From the IMG/VR virus record IMGVR_UViG_3300021406_000015, positions 1 through 53,213 of that record: a stretch of DNA of 53,213 bases, one strand, 5' to 3'. This document shows, one piece after another, positions 9,967 through 27,108 of this stretch. Source of the stretch: a virus. Taxonomy: Duplodnaviria; Caudoviricetes. The stretch's first letter is position 1. Every line of letters begins with the position of its first letter. A program made the translations under genes and the position numbers. The notes beneath the pieces are model-generated. The model ran no database searches and had not been told where the DNA came from. It saw only the letters and a list, made by a program, of their open reading frames with translations.

Positions 9967-10042
9967 TGGGGCAGCCGGGGTGAGTCGAACACCCTTTGAA
10001 CGCTTTAGAGGAGCGCCACATAATCCGTTCTGTCACGGCTGC
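9967..10042 (-). tRNA. tRNA-Arg(TCT)
   Basis: GCGCT-CC-TCT-AA-AGCGT (C33); A20; CCA. Confidence 0.8.
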
Positions 10043-10941: not shown

Positions 10942-10942
10942 A

Positions 10943-11036
10943 TGGTAGGGGATGTAGGTGCCGAGCCTACCCGTCGCTCTAGTCCAGAACTTTCAGTGGG
11001 TTATAAATCCACTCCGCACAGCCGGTGCTATCCCCC
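10943..11036 (-). tRNA. tRNA-Ile(TAT) with long variable arm
   Basis: GGGGGAT/ATCCCCT-A-CCA; loop TT-TAT-AA; V-arm GTTCT-GGACT-AGAGC. Confidence 0.75.
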
Positions 11037-11046
11037 ATAAATTCGT

Positions 11047-11098
11047 TTCACGGCGGGATGGCGTTGCACCACCGTCTCTAGGCTAACGCCGCCGTGAA
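11047..11098 (-). ncRNA. small tRNA-like RNA (10-bp stem plus T-like arm, no anticodon arm, no CCA)
   Basis: TTCACGGCGG/CCGCCGTGAA; GGTGG-TGCAACG-CCATC. Confidence 0.55.
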
Positions 11099-11100
11099 CT

Positions 11101-11169
11101 TGGTAGCACGTCTGGACTCGAACCAGTTTACGGCATTATGAGAGCCGCTTCCCGCCTTGGGTACGTGCC
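11101..11169 (-). tRNA. compact 69-nt tRNA with CAT anticodon (Met or Ile2)
   Basis: GGCACGT/ACGTGCT-A-CCA; CT-CAT-AA loop; short D arm, 3-nt variable loop, 4-bp T stem. Confidence 0.7.
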
Positions 11170-11251: not shown

Positions 11252-11270
11252 AAAATTTCAAAGATCCAAT

Positions 11271-11296
11271 AAAAAACTCCCGCCTAAGCGAGAGTC
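11271..11296 (-). terminator. attenuator terminator upstream of tRNA block C
   Basis: ACTCTCGC-TTAG-GCGGGAGT-TTTTT between leader ORF and first tRNA. Confidence 0.8.
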
Positions 11297-11322
11297 ATTG
11301 TGCCGCGTATGCACTCAGACCC

Positions 11323-11394
11323 TCATGACACAACTCCCCAGACCCGCTTGGTCCCGGTCATCGATTTGGAAGTTCTTATCTGCACGAAAACCAC
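11323..11394 (-). CDS. leader peptide C (MVFVQIRTSKSMTGTKRVWGVVS)
   Basis: AGAGGAG RBS, GTG start, 23 codons; codons match the downstream Trp/CAT/Ile/Lys/Arg/Val/Thr/Gly tRNAs. Confidence 0.8.
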   Translation of the reverse strand: MVFVQIRTSKSMTGTKRVWGVVS

Positions 11395-12771: not shown

Positions 12772-13563
12772 TCATGCACCAACCAATTCTTCGCTCTTAC
12801 TTTTGCGATAGTCTCTCATCGCCTTAGCCCTTGCGTCTTTGCAAACATCGCATCGACAACCGTGATACGAATATGCAGACGATGTTCCGTGTGTGACCAT
12901 TCCGCGCGGTAATAAGTTCGGCGTGGTCAAGGTGTCTTCCAATGTCCATCCATTCTGTATTCGCACAAGAATAGTAGACTTATGAAGCCCTAGTTTTCTT
13001 GCCCATTCGACAACCGGGAGAGTTACATCACCAAACGTCAAATTGATCGTAGAAGACCTATTCTGCGCCTGTTCTCGTTTCGTAGACCACTTACAATTCT
13101 CAGGAGAATACCCTTTTGAGCCATCAACACGATCAATCGTGTGTTGAGGAGTAGGCTTCCGCCCCATGTCACTCAGAAACGTTTCATAGGAATGGAGCCA
13201 TTTATCGCAGACTGTTATACCAACCGCTCCATATCGCAAGTAGCTGGCACTTTGCGGTTTGAGGCATCTTTCTTTCATTGAAATCCAACTCCTATATTCC
13301 GAGGTTGGATGTTTGGACTCTCCGTGAACCAACGGAAAACATTCACTATTGCCCGGTTGTTCGCGCCTCAAACAACCACACGATTTGGAATGGCCTCTTC
13401 GCAGCATCTTAGGTGTTTCAAATTTCCGATTGCCGCAATCACAAAGACATTCAACCACTCCCTGATTGCGTCCTCCGAGCTTCATCATCTGAAGCTCGGA
13501 GATAACAGTCCATTTTCCGAATCGCTCACCCAGCGACACTGTATGCAGTCTTAGTGGATGCAT
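12772..13563 (-). CDS. HNH homing endonuclease with C-terminal HG..S.Y...CRC..C zinc motif
   Basis: CLCDCG, SCGC, YGAVGITVC, TIDRVD..KGY.PENCKW; paralogue of 11650..12318. Confidence 0.85.
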   Translation of the reverse strand: MHPLRLHTVSLGERFGKWTVISELQMMKLGGRNQGVVECLCDCGNRKFETPKMLRRGHSKSCGCLRREQPGNSECFPLVHGESKHPTSEYRSWISMKERCLKPQSASYLRYGAVGITVCDKWLHSYETFLSDMGRKPTPQHTIDRVDGSKGYSPENCKWSTKREQAQNRSSTINLTFGDVTLPVVEWARKLGLHKSTILVRIQNGWTLEDTLTTPNLLPRGMVTHGTSSAYSYHGCRCDVCKDARAKAMRDYRKSKSEELVGA

Positions 13564-15043
13564 TGGTCCCCTTTATGGACGTGAGTACATCGCTCAAGCT
13601 AAGAAGCGGTGTGCTCAATATTTCGTCACATAAAGAATACTGATTAGATCGCAATGTGGCAACTGTATTCGGCAGAGAATAGTAGTCCACCGCACCACGA
13701 CGCAGATCGAACGTGGTCATCTCGATTCCAGCCTGCTGCATCCGTGCCGACAGGTAGTCCGGGTCTCCCGCCAACTGGTAGAAGTACACCGGGACGTCCT
13801 TGTCGATCATCTTCGCGTACTTCTTATATACGTCTGCAAAGTACGGTGCGTGGCCCTCGCCGCCGTCCGAGATGATGGCGATGCCATCGACCTCAGTCTT
13901 CTCGACAAGGAGCCGGTTCAAACCGCAGCCAATGGACGTTCCACCACCAGCGCTGATGTGCTGCGTCGCCTTCTTGATCTGATCGAGCGACGAGCCGGTC
14001 ACTTCCACCGACATCGGAGCCGTATCGAAGAACACCAGCCAGACCTTACCCTTCACGTACTGGGCAAGAGTTGCGGAGACGTGCCGCGAGATCTCGATAG
14101 CGTCACGCATGCTACCGCTCTTGTCGGCCAAGACCAGCCAGTTGCCGTCCGGTCCGCCTGCCGCCGCGATCTGCTTCGCCTGTACTGCGCGGAGCTTGTC
14201 CTTCAAGCCTTCGTCATCGACAGCATCGATAGCCGCAGTCGTCTTCAGCGTGGTCTGCTTGGACGTGGCCACCTTCTTCAGTCCTTCCTCGAAGGCCGCG
14301 CGCAGCGCCGGGTTGGTCTTCATACCCAGCTTCTCTAACATCTTCACGTTGGTCTGCAACTCGGTCGCCGACATGCGCGCCATCAGTGCCAGCACGAGAT
14401 CGGTGTCCTTTGCCTTGGCACCCAGAGCGCCCATGGCGATCAGAAACGGGATCTTGTATTTCGAGATCGCGCCCGCCGCCTCAACCGGTGCCATGTCCTT
14501 CAGGTGAGCAACCACCTCAAAGACACTGCCCTTCGGCAACGGAGCCTTGGTCTTGTCGAAATTGCGACCGTACAGCACGACGTTGGTACGCTCCTTCTCC
14601 GGCTTCGCGTGCGCAAGGGCATAAAGCTCTTTCAGTGTGCTACGGTGCTGTACTGCGAGATGGTCCCAGCCGCGATCCTGCTCCTTCTGGTGAAGATATC
14701 CCTCCACCAACCGGCGAAGCTGCCGCATCTTACCCGGCAACCGCAGTTCCAGAGCAAACCTGTAGGCACGCGCCAACTCGCGCGGTCCCAAGAGAGCAAT
14801 ATGCGCCAGCGAGTTGTCCGCCAGTTCGGCGTCCTTCTCGTAGGCAAGGCCGATGACCGGCAGCGCTACCTTGCTGTCGCGAACCTGGCCATGAGTGCGA
14901 TCCCACGCAATCAGGTGCTGGAAGAACTCGCCTTCCTGTAGGACGGCCTTGAGGCCGATGTCGAGGTACTCCTTGAGAGCACCGTGAGATGACTTGGAAA
15001 GTTCAGCGACGATACGCTGACGTGTTACGCCCTGCTCTGCCAT
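13526..15043 (-). CDS. Ro60/TROVE-like RNA-binding protein with C-terminal vWA domain
   Basis: helical N-terminal region; DKSGSM MIDAS, GGGTSIG, IISDG; about 500 aa; downstream of six Y-like RNAs. Ro60 assignment is inferred from architecture and context; alternative start 15052. Confidence 0.7.
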   Translation of the reverse strand: MAEQGVTRQRIVAELSKSSHGALKEYLDIGLKAVLQEGEFFQHLIAWDRTHGQVRDSKVALPVIGLAYEKDAELADNSLAHIALLGPRELARAYRFALELRLPGKMRQLRRLVEGYLHQKEQDRGWDHLAVQHRSTLKELYALAHAKPEKERTNVVLYGRNFDKTKAPLPKGSVFEVVAHLKDMAPVEAAGAISKYKIPFLIAMGALGAKAKDTDLVLALMARMSATELQTNVKMLEKLGMKTNPALRAAFEEGLKKVATSKQTTLKTTAAIDAVDDEGLKDKLRAVQAKQIAAAGGPDGNWLVLADKSGSMRDAIEISRHVSATLAQYVKGKVWLVFFDTAPMSVEVTGSSLDQIKKATQHISAGGGTSIGCGLNRLLVEKTEVDGIAIISDGGEGHAPYFADVYKKYAKMIDKDVPVYFYQLAGDPDYLSARMQQAGIEMTTFDLRRGAVDYYSLPNTVATLRSNQYSLCDEILSTPLLSLSDVLTSIKGTNASTKTAYSVAG

Positions 15044-15069
15044 GGTGTTCATCCTCCCGTGATGAAAAG

Positions 15070-23641: not shown

Positions 23642-23669
23642 CTTTAGCATTGTCCAGATTCTGGAGCAA
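23642..23669 (-). promoter_or_regulatory. promoter of the Met/Asp/Glu tRNA block overlapped by the 13-bp palindrome
   Basis: TTGCTC ... TG-C-TAAAGT with TCCAGAATCTGGA (23653..23665) overlapping the -35 and spacer. Confidence 0.55.
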
Positions 23670-23670
23670 G

Positions 23671-24333
23671 CTAATTTGCGCTCATCGTATACCCGATACT
23701 CCCGAATTTCACTGAATATGCGCCTCCACCCGGAGTCCCGTTGATTACCTGCTGAAGCTGGGTCACGATCTGCGATGGTGCCCATCCTTGTTTCTTGGCC
23801 GGAATCTTCTGAAGAGAGGGACTGACCAGTGTCTTGGTACCGTTTACCGTGACCGCCAAGACAGAGCTTGTTAACCCAACGAAGTCCAACGCATAATCGA
23901 TCTGCACCGGTACCCACATGTTCGGAGTTGGGATGGTTCCGATCTTGATGCCGGTATCGGTCCAAGATCCGGCTGCATTGTCGATCTGAAACATCCAGCC
24001 CTCGTTAAGATTCCACTGTGCTGAGAGGTCGTAGGTGTTTCCAGCAGCGTCTGTGATCTTCGAGTCTGTCTCGATTACCTGTCCACATTGCAAGGTCGCA
24101 TCATCAATCTGAAAGCTGTAGAGGAAGGATATTGCCGGGAACGGATACAGGAGAGAACTAACGTTTTTAGCTAACCATCCTGAATACGCTGGACCGCAAC
24201 AGTAGAGCCTGATGCCGTCCGGAATCTGGACAAAGTCATAGCCGCTGGGAGAGATCGGGTTGATGGTGGGTCCGACGTTCTTTGTCCAGCCAGTGGAGGA
24301 TTCAAGATTGGTAATGGTACATGCAAGGCTCAT
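23671..24333 (-). CDS. beta-rich hypothetical protein (possible lectin/glucanase-like fold)
   Basis: 220 aa, Trp/Thr/Gly-rich; TATAAT 7 nt before ATG; fold is a guess. Confidence 0.65.
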   Translation of the reverse strand: MSLACTITNLESSTGWTKNVGPTINPISPSGYDFVQIPDGIRLYCCGPAYSGWLAKNVSSLLYPFPAISFLYSFQIDDATLQCGQVIETDSKITDAAGNTYDLSAQWNLNEGWMFQIDNAAGSWTDTGIKIGTIPTPNMWVPVQIDYALDFVGLTSSVLAVTVNGTKTLVSPSLQKIPAKKQGWAPSQIVTQLQQVINGTPGGGAYSVKFGSIGYTMSAN

Positions 24334-24351
24334 GCGCGGAATTATAACTTA

Positions 24352-24435
24352 TGGTGCACTGGGAGAGAATCGAACTCTCGATAGCCTTATGGCCAACTGT
24401 TTTACAGACAGTGTCCGCTCCACGCGGTCCAGTGC
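24352..24435 (-). tRNA. tRNA-Tyr(GTA)
   Basis: ACTGT-CT-GTA-AA-ACAGT; long V arm; CCA. Confidence 0.85.
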
Positions 24436-24441
24436 ACAACA

Positions 24442-24529
24442 TGGTGGCGAGCCAGAGTGTCGATCTCTCATCCCTCTCAGGAGCCAACGGTTTTCAAGGC
24501 CGTTCGCAGAGCCGTCTGCGGGACTCGCC
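24442..24529 (-). tRNA. tRNA-Ser(TGA)
   Basis: loop CT-TGA-AA; long V arm; CCA. Confidence 0.8.
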
Positions 24530-24534
24530 AAACT

Positions 24535-24623
24535 TGGCGGTAGGCTGAGCATCGAAGCCCCGTGCCATCGCTGACACGTCACCGGTTTTCGAGGCCGGGT
24601 GGAGAACTTCTCCGAAACCTACC
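24535..24623 (-). tRNA. tRNA-Ser(CGA)
   Basis: loop CT-CGA-AA; long V arm; G73-CCA. Confidence 0.8.
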
Positions 24624-24624
24624 A

Positions 24625-24709
24625 TGGCGGAAAGAGCAGCATCGAAGCTGATACCTTTCGGTACGCACCGATTTCCAGTCGGGCCTCGCACCTCGCGAGT
24701 TCACTTTCC
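24625..24709 (-). tRNA. tRNA-Ser(GGA)
   Basis: loop CT-GGA-AA; long V arm; G73-CCA. Confidence 0.85.
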
Positions 24710-24714
24710 AAAAA

Positions 24715-24801
24715 TGGCGGAGAGCCGAGCGCACGATGCCCACACCCGAAGGTGCCATTCGTTTAGCAAACGACGCCGTCAGCCCCAACGGTTGACTCTC
24801 C
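24715..24801 (-). tRNA. tRNA-Ser(GCT)
   Basis: loop TT-GCT-AA; long V arm; G73-CCA. Confidence 0.85.
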
Positions 24802-24816
24802 GTGAAACTTCTCTGA

Positions 24817-24916
24817 TATTCACCGTGACGGGACTTGAACCCGCAAGGTCGGTGTTACTCCGTGAAACACGTTTGCCATTGTTCTGACTCTCGTCGCTTT
24901 CGCCACACAATGAATA
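24817..24916 (-). ncRNA. tRNA-like RNA with 11-bp terminal stem and canonical T arm
   Basis: TATTCATTGTG/CACGGTGAATA; GCGGG-TTCAAGT-CCCGT; internal GNRA hairpins; no CCA. Confidence 0.6.
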
Positions 24917-24924
24917 CCAGAACT

Positions 24925-25009
24925 TGGTGCCGGTCGCGGATAACGAGTCCGCACGCCATTTACGGCACTGGCTTTTGAGGCCAGCATGTCTGCATTCCAT
25001 CAGACCGGC
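24925..25009 (-). tRNA. tRNA-Leu(CAA)
   Basis: CTGGC-CT-CAA-AA-GCCAG; V arm; A73-CCA. Confidence 0.85.
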
Positions 25010-25016
25010 AAAAACT

Positions 25017-25102
25017 TGGTGCAGGTAGAGGGACTTGAACCCCCACGCCACTAGGGCAATGGTTTCTAAAACCATCTCGGCTTCCAATTACGACATACCT
25101 GC
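25017..25102 (-). tRNA. tRNA-Leu(TAG)
   Basis: ATGGT-TT-TAG-AA-ACCAT; V arm; CCA. Confidence 0.9.
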
Positions 25103-25109
25103 ACATCTT

Positions 25110-25197
25110 TGGTGCTCCAGAACGGACTTGAACCGTCAAATCTCATCAGAGAAACAAGACCCTCAGTCTTGCGCGTTTTCCTTTTCGCCACTGGAGC
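25110..25197 (-). tRNA. tRNA-Leu(GAG)
   Basis: CAAGA-CT-GAG-GG-TCTTG; V arm; CCA. Confidence 0.9.
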
Positions 25198-25209
25198 AAA
25201 ACTAAACTT

Positions 25210-25287
25210 TGGACGACCGGGCCGGATTTTAACCGACGAAACTAGATGGGTTGCGGCCATCCGCGTTAAACACTTCGCCACCGGTCG
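25210..25287 (-). tRNA. tRNA-Cys(GCA)
   Basis: GATGG-CC-GCA-AC-CCATC (C33); U73-CCA. Confidence 0.8.
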
Positions 25288-25288
25288 A

Positions 25289-25376
25289 TGGTGCGGGAAG
25301 CGGGACTCTAACCCGCACGAGAGTTAAATCTCAAGAGGGTTTAAGCCTCTCATGTCTGACATTCCATCATTCCCGC
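25289..25376 (-). tRNA. tRNA-Leu(TAA)
   Basis: AGAGG-CT-TAA-AC-CCTCT; V arm; CCA. Confidence 0.9.
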
Positions 25377-25383
25377 ATAAACT

Positions 25384-25413
25384 AAAACAGCCCCCGATTT
25401 TGGTCGGAGGCTG
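25384..25413 (-). terminator. attenuator terminator upstream of tRNA block A
   Basis: CAGCCTCCGA-CCAAAA-TCGGGGGCTG-TTTT. Confidence 0.85.
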
Positions 25414-25438
25414 CTGTAACCCAGAAAATCGATCCGGC

Positions 25439-25510
25439 TTACATACGCGCCTCCATGCCGCTCAGTGAGCAGCTATACAAGGACGACGAGAGTAAGCTTA
25501 GGAGTTTCAT
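25439..25510 (-). CDS. leader peptide A (MKLLSLLSSSLYSCSLSGMEARM)
   Basis: 23 codons; codons 3-17 are all Leu/Ser/Tyr/Cys, matching the 10 downstream tRNAs. Confidence 0.85.
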   Translation of the reverse strand: MKLLSLLSSSLYSCSLSGMEARM

Positions 25511-25520
25511 ACGCAGGAAC

Positions 25521-25549
25521 ATGATTCCACGGATTTATTTTGGTGTCAA
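25521..25549 (-). promoter_or_regulatory. promoter of tRNA block A
   Basis: TTGACA-17 nt-AATCAT with TG extension, 10 nt before leader ATG. Confidence 0.6.
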
Positions 25550-25552
25550 GAT

Positions 25553-26017
25553 TTAATTAACAAAGTGCTGTATCGGATCGCCAACAACAGTCCATCCTGT
25601 CGTCGGTGTCGTCGTATATGCCGGGGTTACCCAACTACACGAAGTTGACTTCGGCGGTGTGTATGGTGCGGGCACGATGAACTTGTAATCTTCACTGTAC
25701 TGAATCCCGCCTTCCCAACCCTCACTCGGTTTCCAGTCGTGTGCGGCAGCTTCCTGTTCGGGTGTTGGCTTTGGTGGAGTGCAAGTGCCATGAAGGTCTA
25801 GCGTAATACATGCCGTTGACGGATAGACGATCTCTTCCATCGCGTACTTCCGCCGAATCTTTAAATCAAATTCCGCTTGTTGCTTTGCAAGGTCGGCGCG
25901 GGCGTCTGCCAGATGTTTGGCTTCCACCGCTTCTGTAGGGCTGAGTGCAATAACCTTGGCATTTTGTGCGTAACAACAAGACACCGACAGTGCTAATACG
26001 ACAAGGGATAGCTTCAT
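25553..26017 (-). CDS. exported hypothetical protein
   Basis: signal peptide MKLSLVVLALSVSCCYA; AAGGAG RBS. Confidence 0.7.
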   Translation of the reverse strand: MKLSLVVLALSVSCCYAQNAKVIALSPTEAVEAKHLADARADLAKQQAEFDLKIRRKYAMEEIVYPSTACITLDLHGTCTPPKPTPEQEAAAHDWKPSEGWEGGIQYSEDYKFIVPAPYTPPKSTSCSWVTPAYTTTPTTGWTVVGDPIQHFVN

Positions 26018-26089
26018 TTAACTCTCCTTTGAGCAATTTAGTACAGCTCGATATTCGTTTTGGGCATCTGATTGCAAGTGAGGTGAACT

Positions 26090-26272
26090 ATGATTTCGCT
26101 CGTCATCACAGTAATTGTGTTCATGTTGCTGGTCTGGTTGCTCTACTATGTTGCCAAACAGTTGGGTGCGCCAGATAAGTTTCTCAATATTGCCGTGGCG
26201 GTCGTGTGCGTCCTATTCTTGATCTGGTTCCTGACCCAAGCGGCTCCAATGATCGGACATTTTGGAAGATAA
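26090..26272 (+). CDS. small two-TM membrane protein
   Basis: two hydrophobic helices; GAGGTG RBS. Confidence 0.7.
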   Translation: MISLVITVIVFMLLVWLLYYVAKQLGAPDKFLNIAVAVVCVLFLIWFLTQAAPMIGHFGR

Positions 26273-26515
26273 TCACGCGGCTGTCTGCTTCTTTCTCCGT
26301 GCCACTGCGTGGGCATGCGTACACGGTTTACATCGACAGCCAGCACTATACGAGGAGTAAATCCCGTGTGTGAGGATCTTGTCTGCAATATTGCGTGCGC
26401 GATATGCACGCGTTCGCAAGGCCCACGCCTCTTTACATTTTTTGCAACGACAACTGTGATTTGTATAGCAACTGATCGTTCCGTGAGTCCAGTCTTTTTT
26501 CGCCAGTTTTTCCAT
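26273..26515 (-). CDS. small Zn-binding protein with two HG..S.Y...CRC..C repeats
   Basis: THGTISCYTNHSCRCKKC / THGIYSSYSAGCRCKPC; same motif ends the HNH at 12772. Confidence 0.6.
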   Translation of the reverse strand: MEKLAKKDWTHGTISCYTNHSCRCKKCKEAWALRTRAYRARNIADKILTHGIYSSYSAGCRCKPCTHAHAVARRKKQTAA

Positions 26516-26646
26516 GGAAATAAATATACTGCATAATTACGAAACATGGTATTGTGTTTCTGCGGGAAGCCGGAGTGCTGAACATTCTGCTACGCGTTTC
26601 AGGACTGGGGAACCGGCTCTCCCGCGTAGTCCAGAATCTGGAGTGT

Positions 26647-27066
26647 ATGCCTAAATTATCGTTCGTGGTTCTTGGGAAGCCAGCGCCTCAAGGTAGTATG
26701 CGAGCAATCGTTGTCAAGGGTAAGGCTCGACTCATTTCCCAACTCAAGACCACGATGCCATTTCGCCAACAAGCTGGTTGGTCGTCTCTCACCGCACGCG
26801 CTGAAGCTGGCTATCACGAAGTTATGTTCGGCGCACACGTTCCGATCTTCGTTACCTGCGCCTTCTACTTCGCACCACCTAAAAAGATGCCAAAAGGCCG
26901 CAAGTATCCAGCCGTTCCTCCGGATTGCGATAAATTATGCAGGCTTATTTTAGACTCTATGAAGCACGTGATATACACCGACGACGGGCAAGTAGTAAAT
27001 CTGATGGCAAAGAAACGCTATGGACTCCCAGAACGCGCGGAAGTGACTGTGGAATCCGTCGAATAA
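26647..27066 (+). CDS. rusA: RusA-family Holliday junction resolvase
   Basis: GKPAPQGS, PPDCDKL.R.ILDS, DDGQVV, KRY. Confidence 0.88.
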   Translation: MPKLSFVVLGKPAPQGSMRAIVVKGKARLISQLKTTMPFRQQAGWSSLTARAEAGYHEVMFGAHVPIFVTCAFYFAPPKKMPKGRKYPAVPPDCDKLCRLILDSMKHVIYTDDGQVVNLMAKKRYGLPERAEVTVESVE

Positions 27067-27108
27067 TAAAATCTCACACTCTGCGCTTTTTGTGCTATGG
27101 TTCTGAGC

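What the first reader, a model, noticed from the sequence alone, without database searches (positions are those of the whole stretch)
25384..25549. Attenuator A: leader lists every Leu/Ser/Tyr/Cys tRNA downstream
Seen: ATG AAA CTC CTA AGC TTA CTC TCG TCG TCC TTG TAT AGC TGC TCA CTG AGC GGC ATG GAG GCG CGT ATG TAA. Fifteen consecutive codons are Leu/Ser/Tyr/Cys, and all ten downstream tRNAs (Leu TAA/GAG/TAG/CAA, Cys GCA, Ser GCT/GGA/CGA/TGA, Tyr GTA) have a cognate codon. GGAGGC near the ORF end is complementary to GCCTCC in the terminator 5' arm and would be covered by a ribosome at the stop. A GCTGCTC/GAGCGGC hairpin lies in the leader. This is the clearest of the three cases.
Basis: partly seen in the sequence, partly recalled or inferred. 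Interest (0 to 1): 0.9.

Follow-up and report, generated by a model that had tools for sequence, protein, structure and literature searches.

The report
Leader-peptide attenuator before phage tRNA genes
A soil phage places a tiny gene, written almost wholly in the codons read by the transfer RNAs encoded just behind it, between a promoter and a stop signal for transcription, which looks like a switch that makes more phage transfer RNA when decoding of those codons runs slow.

Summary
On the minus strand lie a near-consensus promoter (25549-25521), a 23-codon ORF (25510-25439), a 12-bp terminator (25415-25386) and, 10 nt on, an array of ten Leu/Cys/Ser/Tyr tRNAs. Codons 3-17 are all cognate to that array. 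Of 50,548 stop-free 22-codon windows elsewhere in the contig, 0 reach its 18 codons cognate to the tRNAs up to the next leader.

Five of the ten tRNAs are non-canonical. They rest on relaxed calls and on synteny.

The contig carries two more such modules, before the Asn..Arg and the Trp..Gly arrays. Relatives in viral and metagenome contigs gave 35 distinct leaders. All 35 match their own array best (64-74% of codons against 7-15%). Peptide order is scrambled (median identity about 0.4). Synonymous codon choice follows the anticodons downstream.

Best reading: a trp-type, ribosome-mediated attenuator on a near-leaderless ORF that senses decoding capacity and feeds back on phage tRNA synthesis. 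The selected codon match is shown. The RNA switch and the sign of control are inferred. No RNA data were available.

Five full-text searches found no such element in print. My scans of the T5 and Mx1 tRNA regions found none there. I rate it a new variant of a known kind.

The parts
25544..25549 (-). -35 box TTGACA of the leader promoter
   Evidence: 10 of 12 matches, TG before the -10. The same box plus a 17-nt spacer is found before all 7 A-type leaders.
25521..25529 (-). Extended -10 (TG, one base, AATCAT)
   Evidence: The start codon lies 10 nt after the hexamer, so the 5' UTR would be about 3-4 nt (inferred).
25439..25510 (-). Leader ORF A: 23 sense codons plus TAA (alternative in-frame ATG at 25522)
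   Evidence: Orthologs: L003:864-947, L006:969-1040, L068:364-444, L069:366-434, L013:1618-1680, L019:505-579; L081:969-1046, L085:1038-1109, L088:93-161.
25460..25504 (-). Regulatory run: codons 3-17, all Leu/Ser/Tyr/Cys, covering all ten tRNAs of the array
   Evidence: 15 of 15 cognate; 13 Watson-Crick-cognate codons in the whole ORF, covering 9 of 10 tRNAs. In 10 A-type leaders the middle codons are cognate in 136 of 155 cases, codons 2-3 in 2 of 20, the last five in 6 of 50.
25446..25488 (-). Long imperfect in-ORF hairpin ('1:2'); core 25473-25467 / 25463-25457; its 3' strand holds GGAGGC
   Evidence: centroid structure; whole leader z = -3.77, 0 of 200 shuffles fold as well. RNAalifold keeps a hairpin ending in the invariant CTGAG in 7 A leaders.
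25449..25454 (-). GGAGGC, candidate antiterminator strand; ends 8 nt before the stop codon
   Evidence: duplex with the terminator 5' arm -15.6 kcal/mol; shuffled tails -9.5, sd 2.5; best partner of the 5' arm lies -14..-1 from the stop.
25386..25415 (-). Intrinsic terminator hairpin (GCCTCC at 25411-25406 in the 5' arm), followed by a T-run at 25377-25385
   Evidence: 12 pairs, 7 G-C; -19.3 kcal/mol, tail UUUAGUUU.
25017..25376 (-). tRNA-Leu(taa) 25289-25376, Cys(gca) 25210-25287, Leu(gag) 25110-25197, Leu(tag) 25017-25102
24925..25009 (-). tRNA-Leu(caa) with an unusual T loop
   Evidence: relaxed ARAGORN; alignment with Leu(caa) of relatives.
24442..24802 (-). Four non-canonical tRNA-Ser: gct about 24716-24802, gga 24626-24710, cga 24534-24622, tga 24442-24529
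   Evidence: Ser-gga by relaxed ARAGORN with an 8-bp acceptor and 4-bp T stem. Ser-tga as a tRNA-Sec-like hit, 39.9 bits, below gathering. All four align on the anticodon loop with Ser tRNAs at the same array positions in relatives. Ser-gct and Ser-cga were not called by any program in the window.
24352..24435 (-). tRNA-Tyr(gta), last tRNA of the array
   Evidence: weak Sec-like hit.
19225..19415 (-). Second module (B): promoter, ORF 19375-19292, hairpin plus T-run 19262-19225; precedes Asn, Gln, Gln, Gly, Thr, His, Ala, Phe, Pro, Arg, Thr tRNAs
   Evidence: 18 of 26 codons cognate to its own set, 6 and 2 to the others.
11275..11394 (-). Third module (C): ORF 11385-11323 (or from the GTG at 11394), terminator 11296-11275; precedes Trp, Met, Ile, Lys, Lys, CTA, Arg, Arg, Val, Thr, Ile, Gly tRNAs
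   Evidence: 12 of 19 codons cognate to its own set, 7 and 1 to the others.

Best explanation
Proposal: this is a ribosome-mediated (leader-peptide) transcription attenuator that controls a phage tRNA array.

Proposed steps.
1. A host sigma-70-type promoter starts an RNA whose first codons are the leader ORF, with no Shine-Dalgarno box, so a ribosome loads at or near the 5' end and follows the polymerase.
2. Codons 3-17 spell out, one by one, the codons read by the ten Leu/Cys/Ser/Tyr tRNAs encoded downstream.
3. If charged tRNA for all of them is plentiful, the ribosome runs to the stop codon. It then covers the G-rich strand (GGAGGC) 8-13 nt upstream of the stop. The terminator hairpin forms and transcription ends before the tRNA genes.
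4. If any listed codon is decoded slowly, the ribosome stalls on the 5' half of the long in-ORF hairpin. GGAGGC is freed and pairs with GCCTCC in the terminator's 5' arm. The polymerase reads through into the array.
5. With no ribosome at all, the in-ORF hairpin holds GGAGGC and the terminator forms.

Net effect: negative feedback. Phage tRNA is made when decoding capacity for exactly these codons is short, and synthesis is throttled once it is restored.

Shown: the parts, their order, the codon match and its conservation.
Inferred: translation of the ORF, the alternative pairing, and the sign of control.
For: 1. Anatomy in the window: promoter, ORF, terminator, then a tRNA 10 nt later.

2. 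Codon match in the window (standard wobble).
- 15 of 22 inner codons are cognate to the ten-tRNA array.
- 18 of 22 are cognate to all tRNAs up to the next leader.
- Only 3 and 1 are cognate to the arrays behind leaders B and C.
- 0 of 50,548 null windows reach 18.

3. Internal replication. Leaders B and C match their own arrays (18 of 26; 12 of 19) and not the others. Their nulls are 22 of 44,894 and 50 of 55,439.

4. Conservation with scrambling.
- A protein inside the array region has about 1000 metagenomic homologs.
- 65 viral and 80 metagenome loci were fetched around it.
- Among them I found 35 distinct leaders (10 A, 9 B, 16 C).
- All 35 match their own canonical tRNA set best: A 144 of 225, B 152 of 206, C 251 of 375; off-diagonal 7-15%.
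- Median pairwise peptide identity is only 0.39-0.43.

5. Synonymous-codon specificity between B and C leaders follows the anticodons downstream.
- Gly GGY against GGR: 15:5 versus 5:36 (p = 1.9e-6).
- Thr ACR against ACY: 26:8 versus 11:55 (p = 7.4e-9).
- Arg CGH against AGR/CGG: 13:2 versus 9:40 (p = 2.8e-6).
- The sequences are related, so these p-values overstate independence.

6. Frame specificity. 64-74% cognate with 0 stops in frame; 20-47% with 2-30 stops in the shifted frames.

7. Core versus ends. Middle codons are 76-88% cognate; codons 2-3 and the last five are far lower.

8. Same promoter-to-start architecture. TTGACA, 17 nt, -10, then the start codon 6-10 nt later, in 7 of 7 A leaders.

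9. Terminators. 18 of 21 leaders have a hairpin plus U-tract. The C-leader terminator shows compensatory changes in 5 of 6 pairs.

10. RNA folding. The window leader folds into the in-ORF hairpin plus terminator, z = -3.77. The ORF tail pairs with its own terminator 5' arm better than the shuffled mean in 7 of 7 A leaders. By my count from the rows, the best partner of the 5' arm overlaps -15..+15 of the stop codon in 26 of 35 leaders.

11. Negative control. Four other ORFs caught by the same promoter-plus-ORF rule are 0-21% cognate.
Against: - No expression data: no RNA run holds the stretch. Translation, termination and read-through are therefore unobserved.
- Masked folding did not give a clean on/off picture. 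In the window leader the 5' arm still finds an upstream partner when a ribosome is placed at the stop codon.
- Over all 21 leaders, own ORF-tail against terminator-arm pairing is not significantly better than permuted pairings (p about 0.10). For B and C leaders it is not better than shuffles.
- About half of the 14-nt windows would overlap the -15..+15 zone by chance, by my rough estimate from the transcript lengths. So 26 of 35 is only modest support.
- Three B leaders (L003, L004, L006) have strong hairpins but weak or displaced U-tracts.
- Six of the 35 leaders start with GTG. By recall, a 5'-terminal GTG is a poor leaderless start in E. coli; the host is unknown.
- Five of the ten tRNAs are non-canonical and could be inactive.
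- The window's leader B has no His codon although tRNA-His lies downstream.
- The C leaders of L003 and G002 carry Asp/Glu codons in the tail while the Asp/Glu tRNAs lie elsewhere.
- The element was not seen in the T5 or Mx1 tRNA regions, so it may be confined to one clade.
Confidence: 0.65

Rival explanations
1. Same parts, opposite sign. Efficient translation of the leader promotes read-through, for instance because the passing ribosome melts the in-ORF hairpin and frees the antiterminator strand. Stalling or no translation gives termination. The array would then be made only while decoding works, or once phage tRNAs already help (feed-forward or timer).
For: The naked RNA folds into hairpin plus terminator, so 'off' is the default. 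Masked folding shows the terminator 5' arm pairing upstream for many ribosome positions, including the stop codon. Nothing in the sequence fixes the sign.
Against: The candidate antiterminator strand lies inside the footprint of a terminating ribosome in most leaders (my count, 26 of 35). This is the geometry of the trp/his/leu attenuators (recalled textbook knowledge), where reaching the stop gives termination. Positive feedback on tRNA supply has no obvious use.
Confidence: 0.12
2. The short ORFs are expressed genes for small peptides with a role of their own. Leader A looks like a hydrophobic signal or lipoprotein-like peptide. Alternatively their translation serves as a readout or timer of phage tRNA supply without acting on the terminator. 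The hairpin plus T-run would simply end that small gene, and the tRNAs would be transcribed by leak-through or from elsewhere.
For: Leader A is Leu/Ser-rich with a Cys. C leaders share a conserved peptide stretch (alignment).
Against: - Peptide order is scrambled while codon content is kept.
- B and C leaders are not hydrophobic.
- Synonymous codon choice tracks downstream anticodons. A peptide function does not predict that.
- The conserved C stretch is also a perfect RNA hairpin.
- The promoter scan lists no separate promoter between the terminator and the first tRNA for A.
Confidence: 0.08
3. A translation-independent RNA sensor: the codon-like triplets bind tRNA anticodons directly, in the manner of a T-box specifier, to set terminator against antiterminator.
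For: The element pairs codon-like triplets with a terminator placed upstream of translation-related genes, as T-boxes do (recalled).
Against: - There is no T-box or other cis-regulatory Rfam hit in the window at gathering. Nor is there one at E up to 10 in 23400-25600, apart from noise hits far below their thresholds.
- The signal is frame-specific. The ORF is open in 35 of 35 leaders with varying length, while the shifted frames carry stops.
- A start codon sits at a fixed short distance from the -10 box.
Confidence: 0.04
4. Chance: an accidental ORF in a tRNA-flanking spacer.
For: Short ORFs are everywhere: 429 ORFs of at least 20 aa in 8000-30000.
Against: 0 of 50,548 null windows match. 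There are three modules in one contig, 35 of 35 orthologs match their own set, and the signal is frame-specific.
Confidence: 0.01

Closest known systems
Leader-peptide transcription attenuators of amino-acid operons (trpL, hisL, leuL, thrL, ilvL, pheL; Rfam Trp/His/Leu/Thr leaders). Named from recall.
   Same: A promoter-proximal short ORF with a run of regulatory codons. An in-ORF hairpin. A strand near the stop codon that can pair with the 5' arm of an intrinsic terminator. The terminator sits directly before the regulated genes. Multivalent leaders (thr, ilv) already list more than one amino acid.
   Different: - The regulated genes are tRNAs, not enzymes.
- The leader lists 10-12 different codons for 4-9 amino acids, matched at the synonymous-codon level to the anticodons downstream.
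- There is no Shine-Dalgarno box; the ORF starts 6-10 nt after the -10 box.
- It is carried by a phage, three times per genome.
- No Rfam leader family matches.
pheM leader of the pheST operon (phenylalanyl-tRNA synthetase). Recalled.
   Same: A component of the translation apparatus is controlled by the speed at which a ribosome decodes its own cognate codons in a leader.
   Different: One amino acid and one enzyme, in a bacterial chromosome. Here the product is the tRNA itself, and many species are read out at once.
T-box riboswitches (recalled)
   Same: They monitor tRNA status through codon-anticodon recognition and choose between terminator and antiterminator.
   Different: A T-box binds tRNA directly, without translation, and has conserved Stem I and T-box motifs. 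Here the signal is an open, frame-specific ORF, and no T-box hit was found.
tRNA regions of T5-like and other tRNA-rich phages (T5, NC_005859; Myxococcus phage Mx1, OR576727)
   Same: Long one-strand tRNA arrays interrupted by HNH endonuclease genes, small ORFs and promoters. tRNA-Leu of the window is 77-79% identical to tRNA-Leu of T5-like Vibrio phages.
   Different: In T5 and Mx1, no small ORF before a tRNA run is convincingly enriched in the cognate codons. The best binomial p is about 3e-3 before correction for the many ORFs tried.

Membership tests
Ribosome-mediated (leader-peptide) transcription attenuator | Short ORF at the 5' end of the transcript, directly downstream of a promoter | tested here: met
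   promoter 25549-25521, ORF from 25510. The same layout holds in 7 of 7 A, 7 of 7 B and 3 of 7 C leaders by rule. The other C leaders have weaker -35 boxes.
Ribosome-mediated (leader-peptide) transcription attenuator | ORF enriched in codons whose decoding reports on the regulated product | tested here: met
Ribosome-mediated (leader-peptide) transcription attenuator | Intrinsic terminator between the ORF and the regulated genes | tested here: met
   for the window. 18 of 21 leaders overall; three B leaders have weak U-tracts.
Ribosome-mediated (leader-peptide) transcription attenuator | Mutually exclusive antiterminator whose upstream strand is masked by a ribosome at the stop codon and sequestered by an in-ORF hairpin when untranslated | tested here: inconclusive
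   For: hairpin holds GGAGGC; A leaders 7 of 7 above the shuffled mean; my count, 26 of 35 near the stop. Against: no clean switch; permutation p about 0.10; B and C not supported.
Ribosome-mediated (leader-peptide) transcription attenuator | Translation of the leader, and a change in read-through on limitation of the cognate charged tRNA | not testable with these tools
   No RNA run holds the stretch. Host unknown.
Rfam Trp/His/Leu/Thr leader families | Match to the family covariance model | tested here: not met
   The window at gathering gives only tRNA hits. 23400-25600 at E up to 10 gives no leader family.
T-box riboswitch | Match to the T-box model (Stem I, specifier loop, T-box motif), and action without translation | tested here: not met
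   No hit. The open, frame-specific ORF argues for translation.

The most novel reading that the evidence does not exclude
The leaders are multiplexed sentinels of the host tRNA pool. Each lists every codon served by the array behind it. Loss of any one host tRNA would stall the ribosome and switch on the matching block of replacement tRNAs. Such loss could come from anticodon-nuclease defences, from host shut-off, or from a mismatch in codon usage. Three independent blocks per genome would then make an inducible counter-defence and supply homeostat for tRNA, working through leaderless translation.
Probability: 0.35. Interest if true: 0.95.

Novelty: new variant of a known kind. Interest (0 to 1): 0.88.

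Why it matters
By my recall, phage tRNA genes are usually treated as constitutive add-ons that fit codon usage or replace tRNAs destroyed by host defences.

A leader-peptide attenuator in front of tRNA genes would be, as far as my five literature searches reach, the first case in which tRNA synthesis is gated by a direct readout of how well the very codons those tRNAs serve are being decoded.

- It extends a textbook mechanism to a new class of regulated product.
- It shows that a leader can encode a checklist of a dozen codon species with synonymous-codon precision.
- It offers a natural, compact sensor of decoding capacity that could be tested in reporters at once.
- The family is widespread in soil and peat metagenomes: about 1000 homologs of the marker protein, and leaders in both viral and metagenome contigs.

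Tried and rejected
- Close cultured relatives: none. blastn of 24300-27100 against phages hit only tRNA-Leu. tblastn of the 797-aa ORF gave nothing.
- Single-protein locus searches with the two ORFs flanking array A found no relatives.
- T5: its tRNA region was read, and no cognate-codon leader was seen. Mx1 likewise.
- Pfam gave little for the large ORFs.
- Masked-ribosome folding of truncated leaders was not decisive.
- The first terminator finder failed on some leaders.
- ORF-tail against terminator-arm pairing is not significant over all classes.
- RNAalifold on C leaders recovered only the terminator.
- TAG recoding was considered because of two tRNA(CTA) genes. The window shows no sign of it: TAG ends 25 of 97 ORFs, and treating TAG as sense gains no more coverage than treating TGA or TAA as sense.
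- Sequencing runs: no RNA holder listed. Read laying was not used, because contigs of DNA runs cannot show RNA ends.
- One paper search was rejected for a term that was too short.
- Literature: five searches, listings and abstract starts only, plus passages of PMC4810235. None shows a paper on leader-peptide control of tRNA genes. Subscription papers of the 1980s on the T5 tRNA region are not in the library and were not seen. Supplementary files were not consulted.
- Recalled, not read: trp/his/leu/thr/ilv/pheST attenuation, T-box, allo-tRNA (8/4) structures, leaderless initiation rules, anticodon-nuclease defences.
Full report
WHAT IS THERE.

The window is a whole viral contig of 53,213 bases, estimated 63% complete. 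Runs that hold it are labelled soil metagenomes. About 40 tRNA genes lie on the minus strand between 9,477 and 25,376, interspersed with HNH endonuclease genes.

The finding sits at the upstream end of this region. Read on the minus strand it contains, in order:
- a -35 box TTGACA (25549-25544), a 17-nt spacer with TG, and a -10 box AATCAT (25526-25521). This is 10 of 12 matches, the joint-best promoter-like site of the region;
- a hairpin of 12 pairs followed by a T-run (25415-25386; -19.3 kcal/mol);
- tRNA-Leu(taa), starting 10 nt later.

THE TEN tRNAs.

ARAGORN at default calls Leu-taa, Cys-gca, Leu-gag, Leu-tag and Tyr-gta, and nothing in 24436-25016. Rfam at gathering calls only the first four.
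- Relaxed ARAGORN adds Leu-caa and Ser-gga. The latter is drawn with an 8-bp acceptor stem and a 4-bp T stem.
- Rfam at a permissive threshold sees Ser-tga and Tyr only as sub-threshold tRNA-Sec-like matches.
- Ser-gct and Ser-cga were not called by any program in the window. I read them from the sequence: 8-bp acceptor, encoded CCA, anticodon loop.
- All of these align on the anticodon loop with tRNAs that default or relaxed ARAGORN calls at the same array positions in related phages.

IS THE MATCH MORE THAN CHANCE?

With standard wobble rules, 15 of the 22 inner codons, all consecutive, are cognate to the ten tRNAs. Thirteen match by Watson-Crick, and every one of the ten tRNAs is covered. 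Counting all tRNAs up to the next leader, 18 of 22 are cognate. Of 50,548 stop-free 22-codon windows in six frames that do not overlap the leader, 0 reach 18.

TWO MORE MODULES IN THE SAME CONTIG.

- ORF 19375-19292, with a promoter and a hairpin plus T-run, lies before Asn, Gln, Gln, Gly, Thr, His, Ala, Phe, Pro, Arg and Thr tRNAs.
- ORF 11385-11323, with terminator 11296-11275, lies before Trp, Met, Ile, Lys, Lys, CTA, Arg, Arg, Val, Thr, Ile and Gly tRNAs.

The three leaders against the three tRNA sets give a clean diagonal:

| Leader | own set | other sets |
|---|---|---|
| A | 18 of 22 | 3 and 3 |
| B | 18 of 26 | 6 and 2 |
| C | 12 of 19 | 7 and 1 |

. The nulls for B and C are 22 of 44,894 and 50 of 55,439.

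RELATIVES.

No cultured phage is close. A VWA/CoxE-like protein encoded inside the tRNA region (13526-15052) has about 1000 metagenomic homologs at E of 0.001 or better. The 119 listed besides the window's own are 64-79% identical. An alignment of 28 of them retrieved 65 viral loci and 80 metagenome loci.

Loci with at least about 59% identity in that protein carry syntenic arrays.

Every one matches its own canonical tRNA set best (35 of 35). The sets were defined from tRNA gene content only.

| Leader class | own set | other sets |
|---|---|---|
| A | 144 of 225 | 33 and 32 |
| B | 152 of 206 | 15 and 23 |
| C | 251 of 375 | 27 and 51 |

. With each genome's own tRNA sets, 21 of 21 leaders give the same result.

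Further properties of the 35 leaders:
- The peptides are poorly conserved (median pairwise identity 0.39-0.43), and the order of residues is scrambled. What is kept is the codon content.
- The signal is frame-specific: 64-74% cognate and 0 stops in frame, against 20-47% and 2-30 stops in the shifted frames.
- It is concentrated in the middle of the ORF. For A leaders: middle 136 of 155, codons 2-3 2 of 20, last five 6 of 50.
- Four other ORFs caught by the same rule in the 66 sequences (the window and 65 viral loci) are only 0-21% cognate. Further rule hits in the metagenome loci show no set preference.

SYNONYMOUS-CODON SPECIFICITY.

B and C arrays both hold Gly, Thr and Arg tRNAs, but with different anticodons. 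The leaders follow them (the smaller set is):

| Amino acid | codon groups | B leaders | C leaders | Fisher p |
|---|---|---|---|---|
| Gly | GGT/GGC : GGA/GGG | 15:5 | 5:36 | 1.9e-6 |
| Thr | ACA/ACG : ACC/ACT | 26:8 | 11:55 | 7.4e-9 |
| Arg | CGT/CGC/CGA : AGA/AGG/CGG | 13:2 | 9:40 | 2.8e-6 |

ATA, TGG, an internal ATG, AAG, CGG, AGA, ACC, GGA and GGG occur in 16 of 16 C leaders. ATA, TGG and CGG occur in 0 of 9 B leaders. The sequences are related, so these p-values overstate independence. A peptide function, however, would not predict this pattern.

ARCHITECTURE AND LIKELY MECHANISM.

In all 7 A leaders found in viral contigs, the promoter is TTGACA, 17 nt with TG, a -10 box, and then the start codon after only 6-10 nt. 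There is no room for a Shine-Dalgarno box. The ORF would therefore be translated as a leaderless or near-leaderless mRNA. This is an inference. Six of the 35 leaders start with GTG.

The naked window leader folds (z = -3.77; 0 of 200 shuffles fold as well) into a long imperfect hairpin inside the ORF plus the terminator. In that hairpin, GGAGGC pairs with codons 9-11. The hairpin's 5' strand is made of the regulatory codons.

The layout is that of the trp-type four-segment attenuator (recalled):
- segment 1 is the regulatory codons;
- segment 2 holds GGAGGC, 8-13 nt before the stop;
- segment 3 is the terminator's 5' arm, with GCCTCC;
- segment 4 is the 3' arm.

A ribosome stalled on segment 1 would free segment 2 to pair with segment 3. 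A ribosome at the stop would cover segment 2. No ribosome would leave 1:2 and 3:4 in place.

Support for the 2:3 pairing is moderate.
- In the six other A leaders from viral contigs I could read a G-rich stretch near the ORF end, with different letters, complementary to that leader's own terminator arm.
- Duplex energies beat the shuffled mean in 7 of 7 A leaders, with the fraction of shuffles at least as good between 0 and 0.15.
- By my count from the rows, the best 14-nt partner of the terminator arm overlaps -15..+15 of the stop in 26 of 35 leaders. By my rough estimate, about half would do so by chance.
- Against it: permuting leader-terminator pairings gives p about 0.10; B and C ORF tails are no better than shuffles; and masked folding gave no clean switch.
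- In B and C leaders, the candidate segment 2 seems to lie at or just after the stop codon. It often pairs with the very 5' end of the ORF (mean z -1.97 for C, -0.96 for B, -1.05 for A; +0.4 for the window's leader A).
- RNAalifold keeps the in-ORF hairpin and the terminator in A leaders. In C leaders it keeps the terminator, with 5 of 6 covarying pairs.
- Terminators are canonical in 18 of 21 leaders. Three B leaders have weak U-tracts.

WHAT IS SHOWN AND WHAT IS INFERRED.

Shown: the parts and their order, a codon match far beyond chance, three modules per genome, and conservation of codon content (down to synonymous choice) with a scrambled peptide sequence.

Inferred: that the ORF is translated, that the terminator works, that the alternative pairing exists, and that stalling gives read-through rather than the reverse. 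No RNA data could be had.

COMPARISON WITH WHAT IS KNOWN.

It works like the leader-peptide attenuators of amino-acid operons and of pheST. It is not a member of any Rfam leader family or of the T-box family.

The regulated product (tRNAs), the checklist of 10-12 codon species, the leaderless layout and the phage setting are new as far as I could check. Five full-text searches (listings only) and passages of one review (PMC4810235) show nothing similar. Older subscription papers on T5 could not be searched. In the T5 and Mx1 tRNA regions themselves I found no convincing analogue.

VERDICT.

I rate it a new variant of a known kind, of high interest, and testable at once with reporters.

Noticed in passing
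window 19225-19415 (-) and 11275-11394 (-): Two further modules of promoter, short ORF and terminator (B and C), each enriched in codons of the tRNA array behind it. They were used here as internal replication.
   Followed up: yes
window 9967-10042 (-) and 21147-21220 (-); L003:8708, L006:8411, L006:13452: There are two tRNA genes with anticodon CTA (amber suppressors) in the window. Relatives carry TCA and, by one ARAGORN run, TTA anticodons instead. There is no sign of TAG recoding in the window. Six of 9 B leaders end in TAG. In the window, read-through would add 9 codons and end at a TGA shortly before the terminator hairpin. Whether suppressor supply feeds into the switch was not explored.
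   Followed up: partly
window 24442-24802 (-): Four tRNA-Ser candidates appear to have an 8-bp acceptor stem, a 4-bp T stem and a long D stem. This is Sec-like, or like the allo-tRNAs I recall from the literature. Default ARAGORN and Rfam at gathering miss them.
   Followed up: partly
window 24812-24913 (-): A tRNA-like element between Leu(caa) and Ser(gct), with a good T arm, an 8-nt anticodon loop and no encoded CCA. Relaxed ARAGORN calls it with anticodon 'gcaa'.
   Followed up: no
window 10942-11169 (-): Two non-canonical tRNAs lie between Trp and Lys(ctt). Met/Ile(cat) at 11101-11169 comes from relaxed ARAGORN. An Ile(tat) candidate with a long extra arm at about 10942-11036 is my own reading, backed by the alignment. 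ATA and an internal ATG occur in all 16 C leaders.
   Followed up: partly
alignment A3, columns about 170-180; window about 11262-11270 (-): A conserved TTTGA(C/A)A motif lies between the C-leader terminator and tRNA-Trp in most of the 16 sequences. Its role is unknown. It could be a -35-like box or a processing signal.
   Followed up: no
C leaders, e.g. L072:2809-2949, L084:4305-4460: The first 16 nt of the ORF, start codon included, pair with the 20 nt after the stop codon (mean z -1.97; 8 of 16 at p of 0.05 or below). Two sequence subtypes use different letters for the same helix. Such a helix would close the leaderless start after one round of loading.
   Followed up: partly
window 13526-15052 (-) and 19420-20253 (-): Two VWA-domain proteins sit inside the tRNA region. 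The first hits PHROG 'RNA-binding protein' and Pfam VWA_CoxE below the curated cut-off, and has about 1000 metagenomic homologs. The second is nearest to a VWA protein of Myxococcus phage Mx1. That Mx1 protein sits in a tRNA region that also holds a TROVE-domain protein.
   Followed up: partly
window 22958-22986 (-) and 23640-23672 (-): tRNA-Asp and tRNA-Met have promoter-like sites directly upstream with no leader ORF. The Asp site is in the scan. The Met site is my own reading. So not all tRNAs of the region would be under leader control.
   Followed up: no
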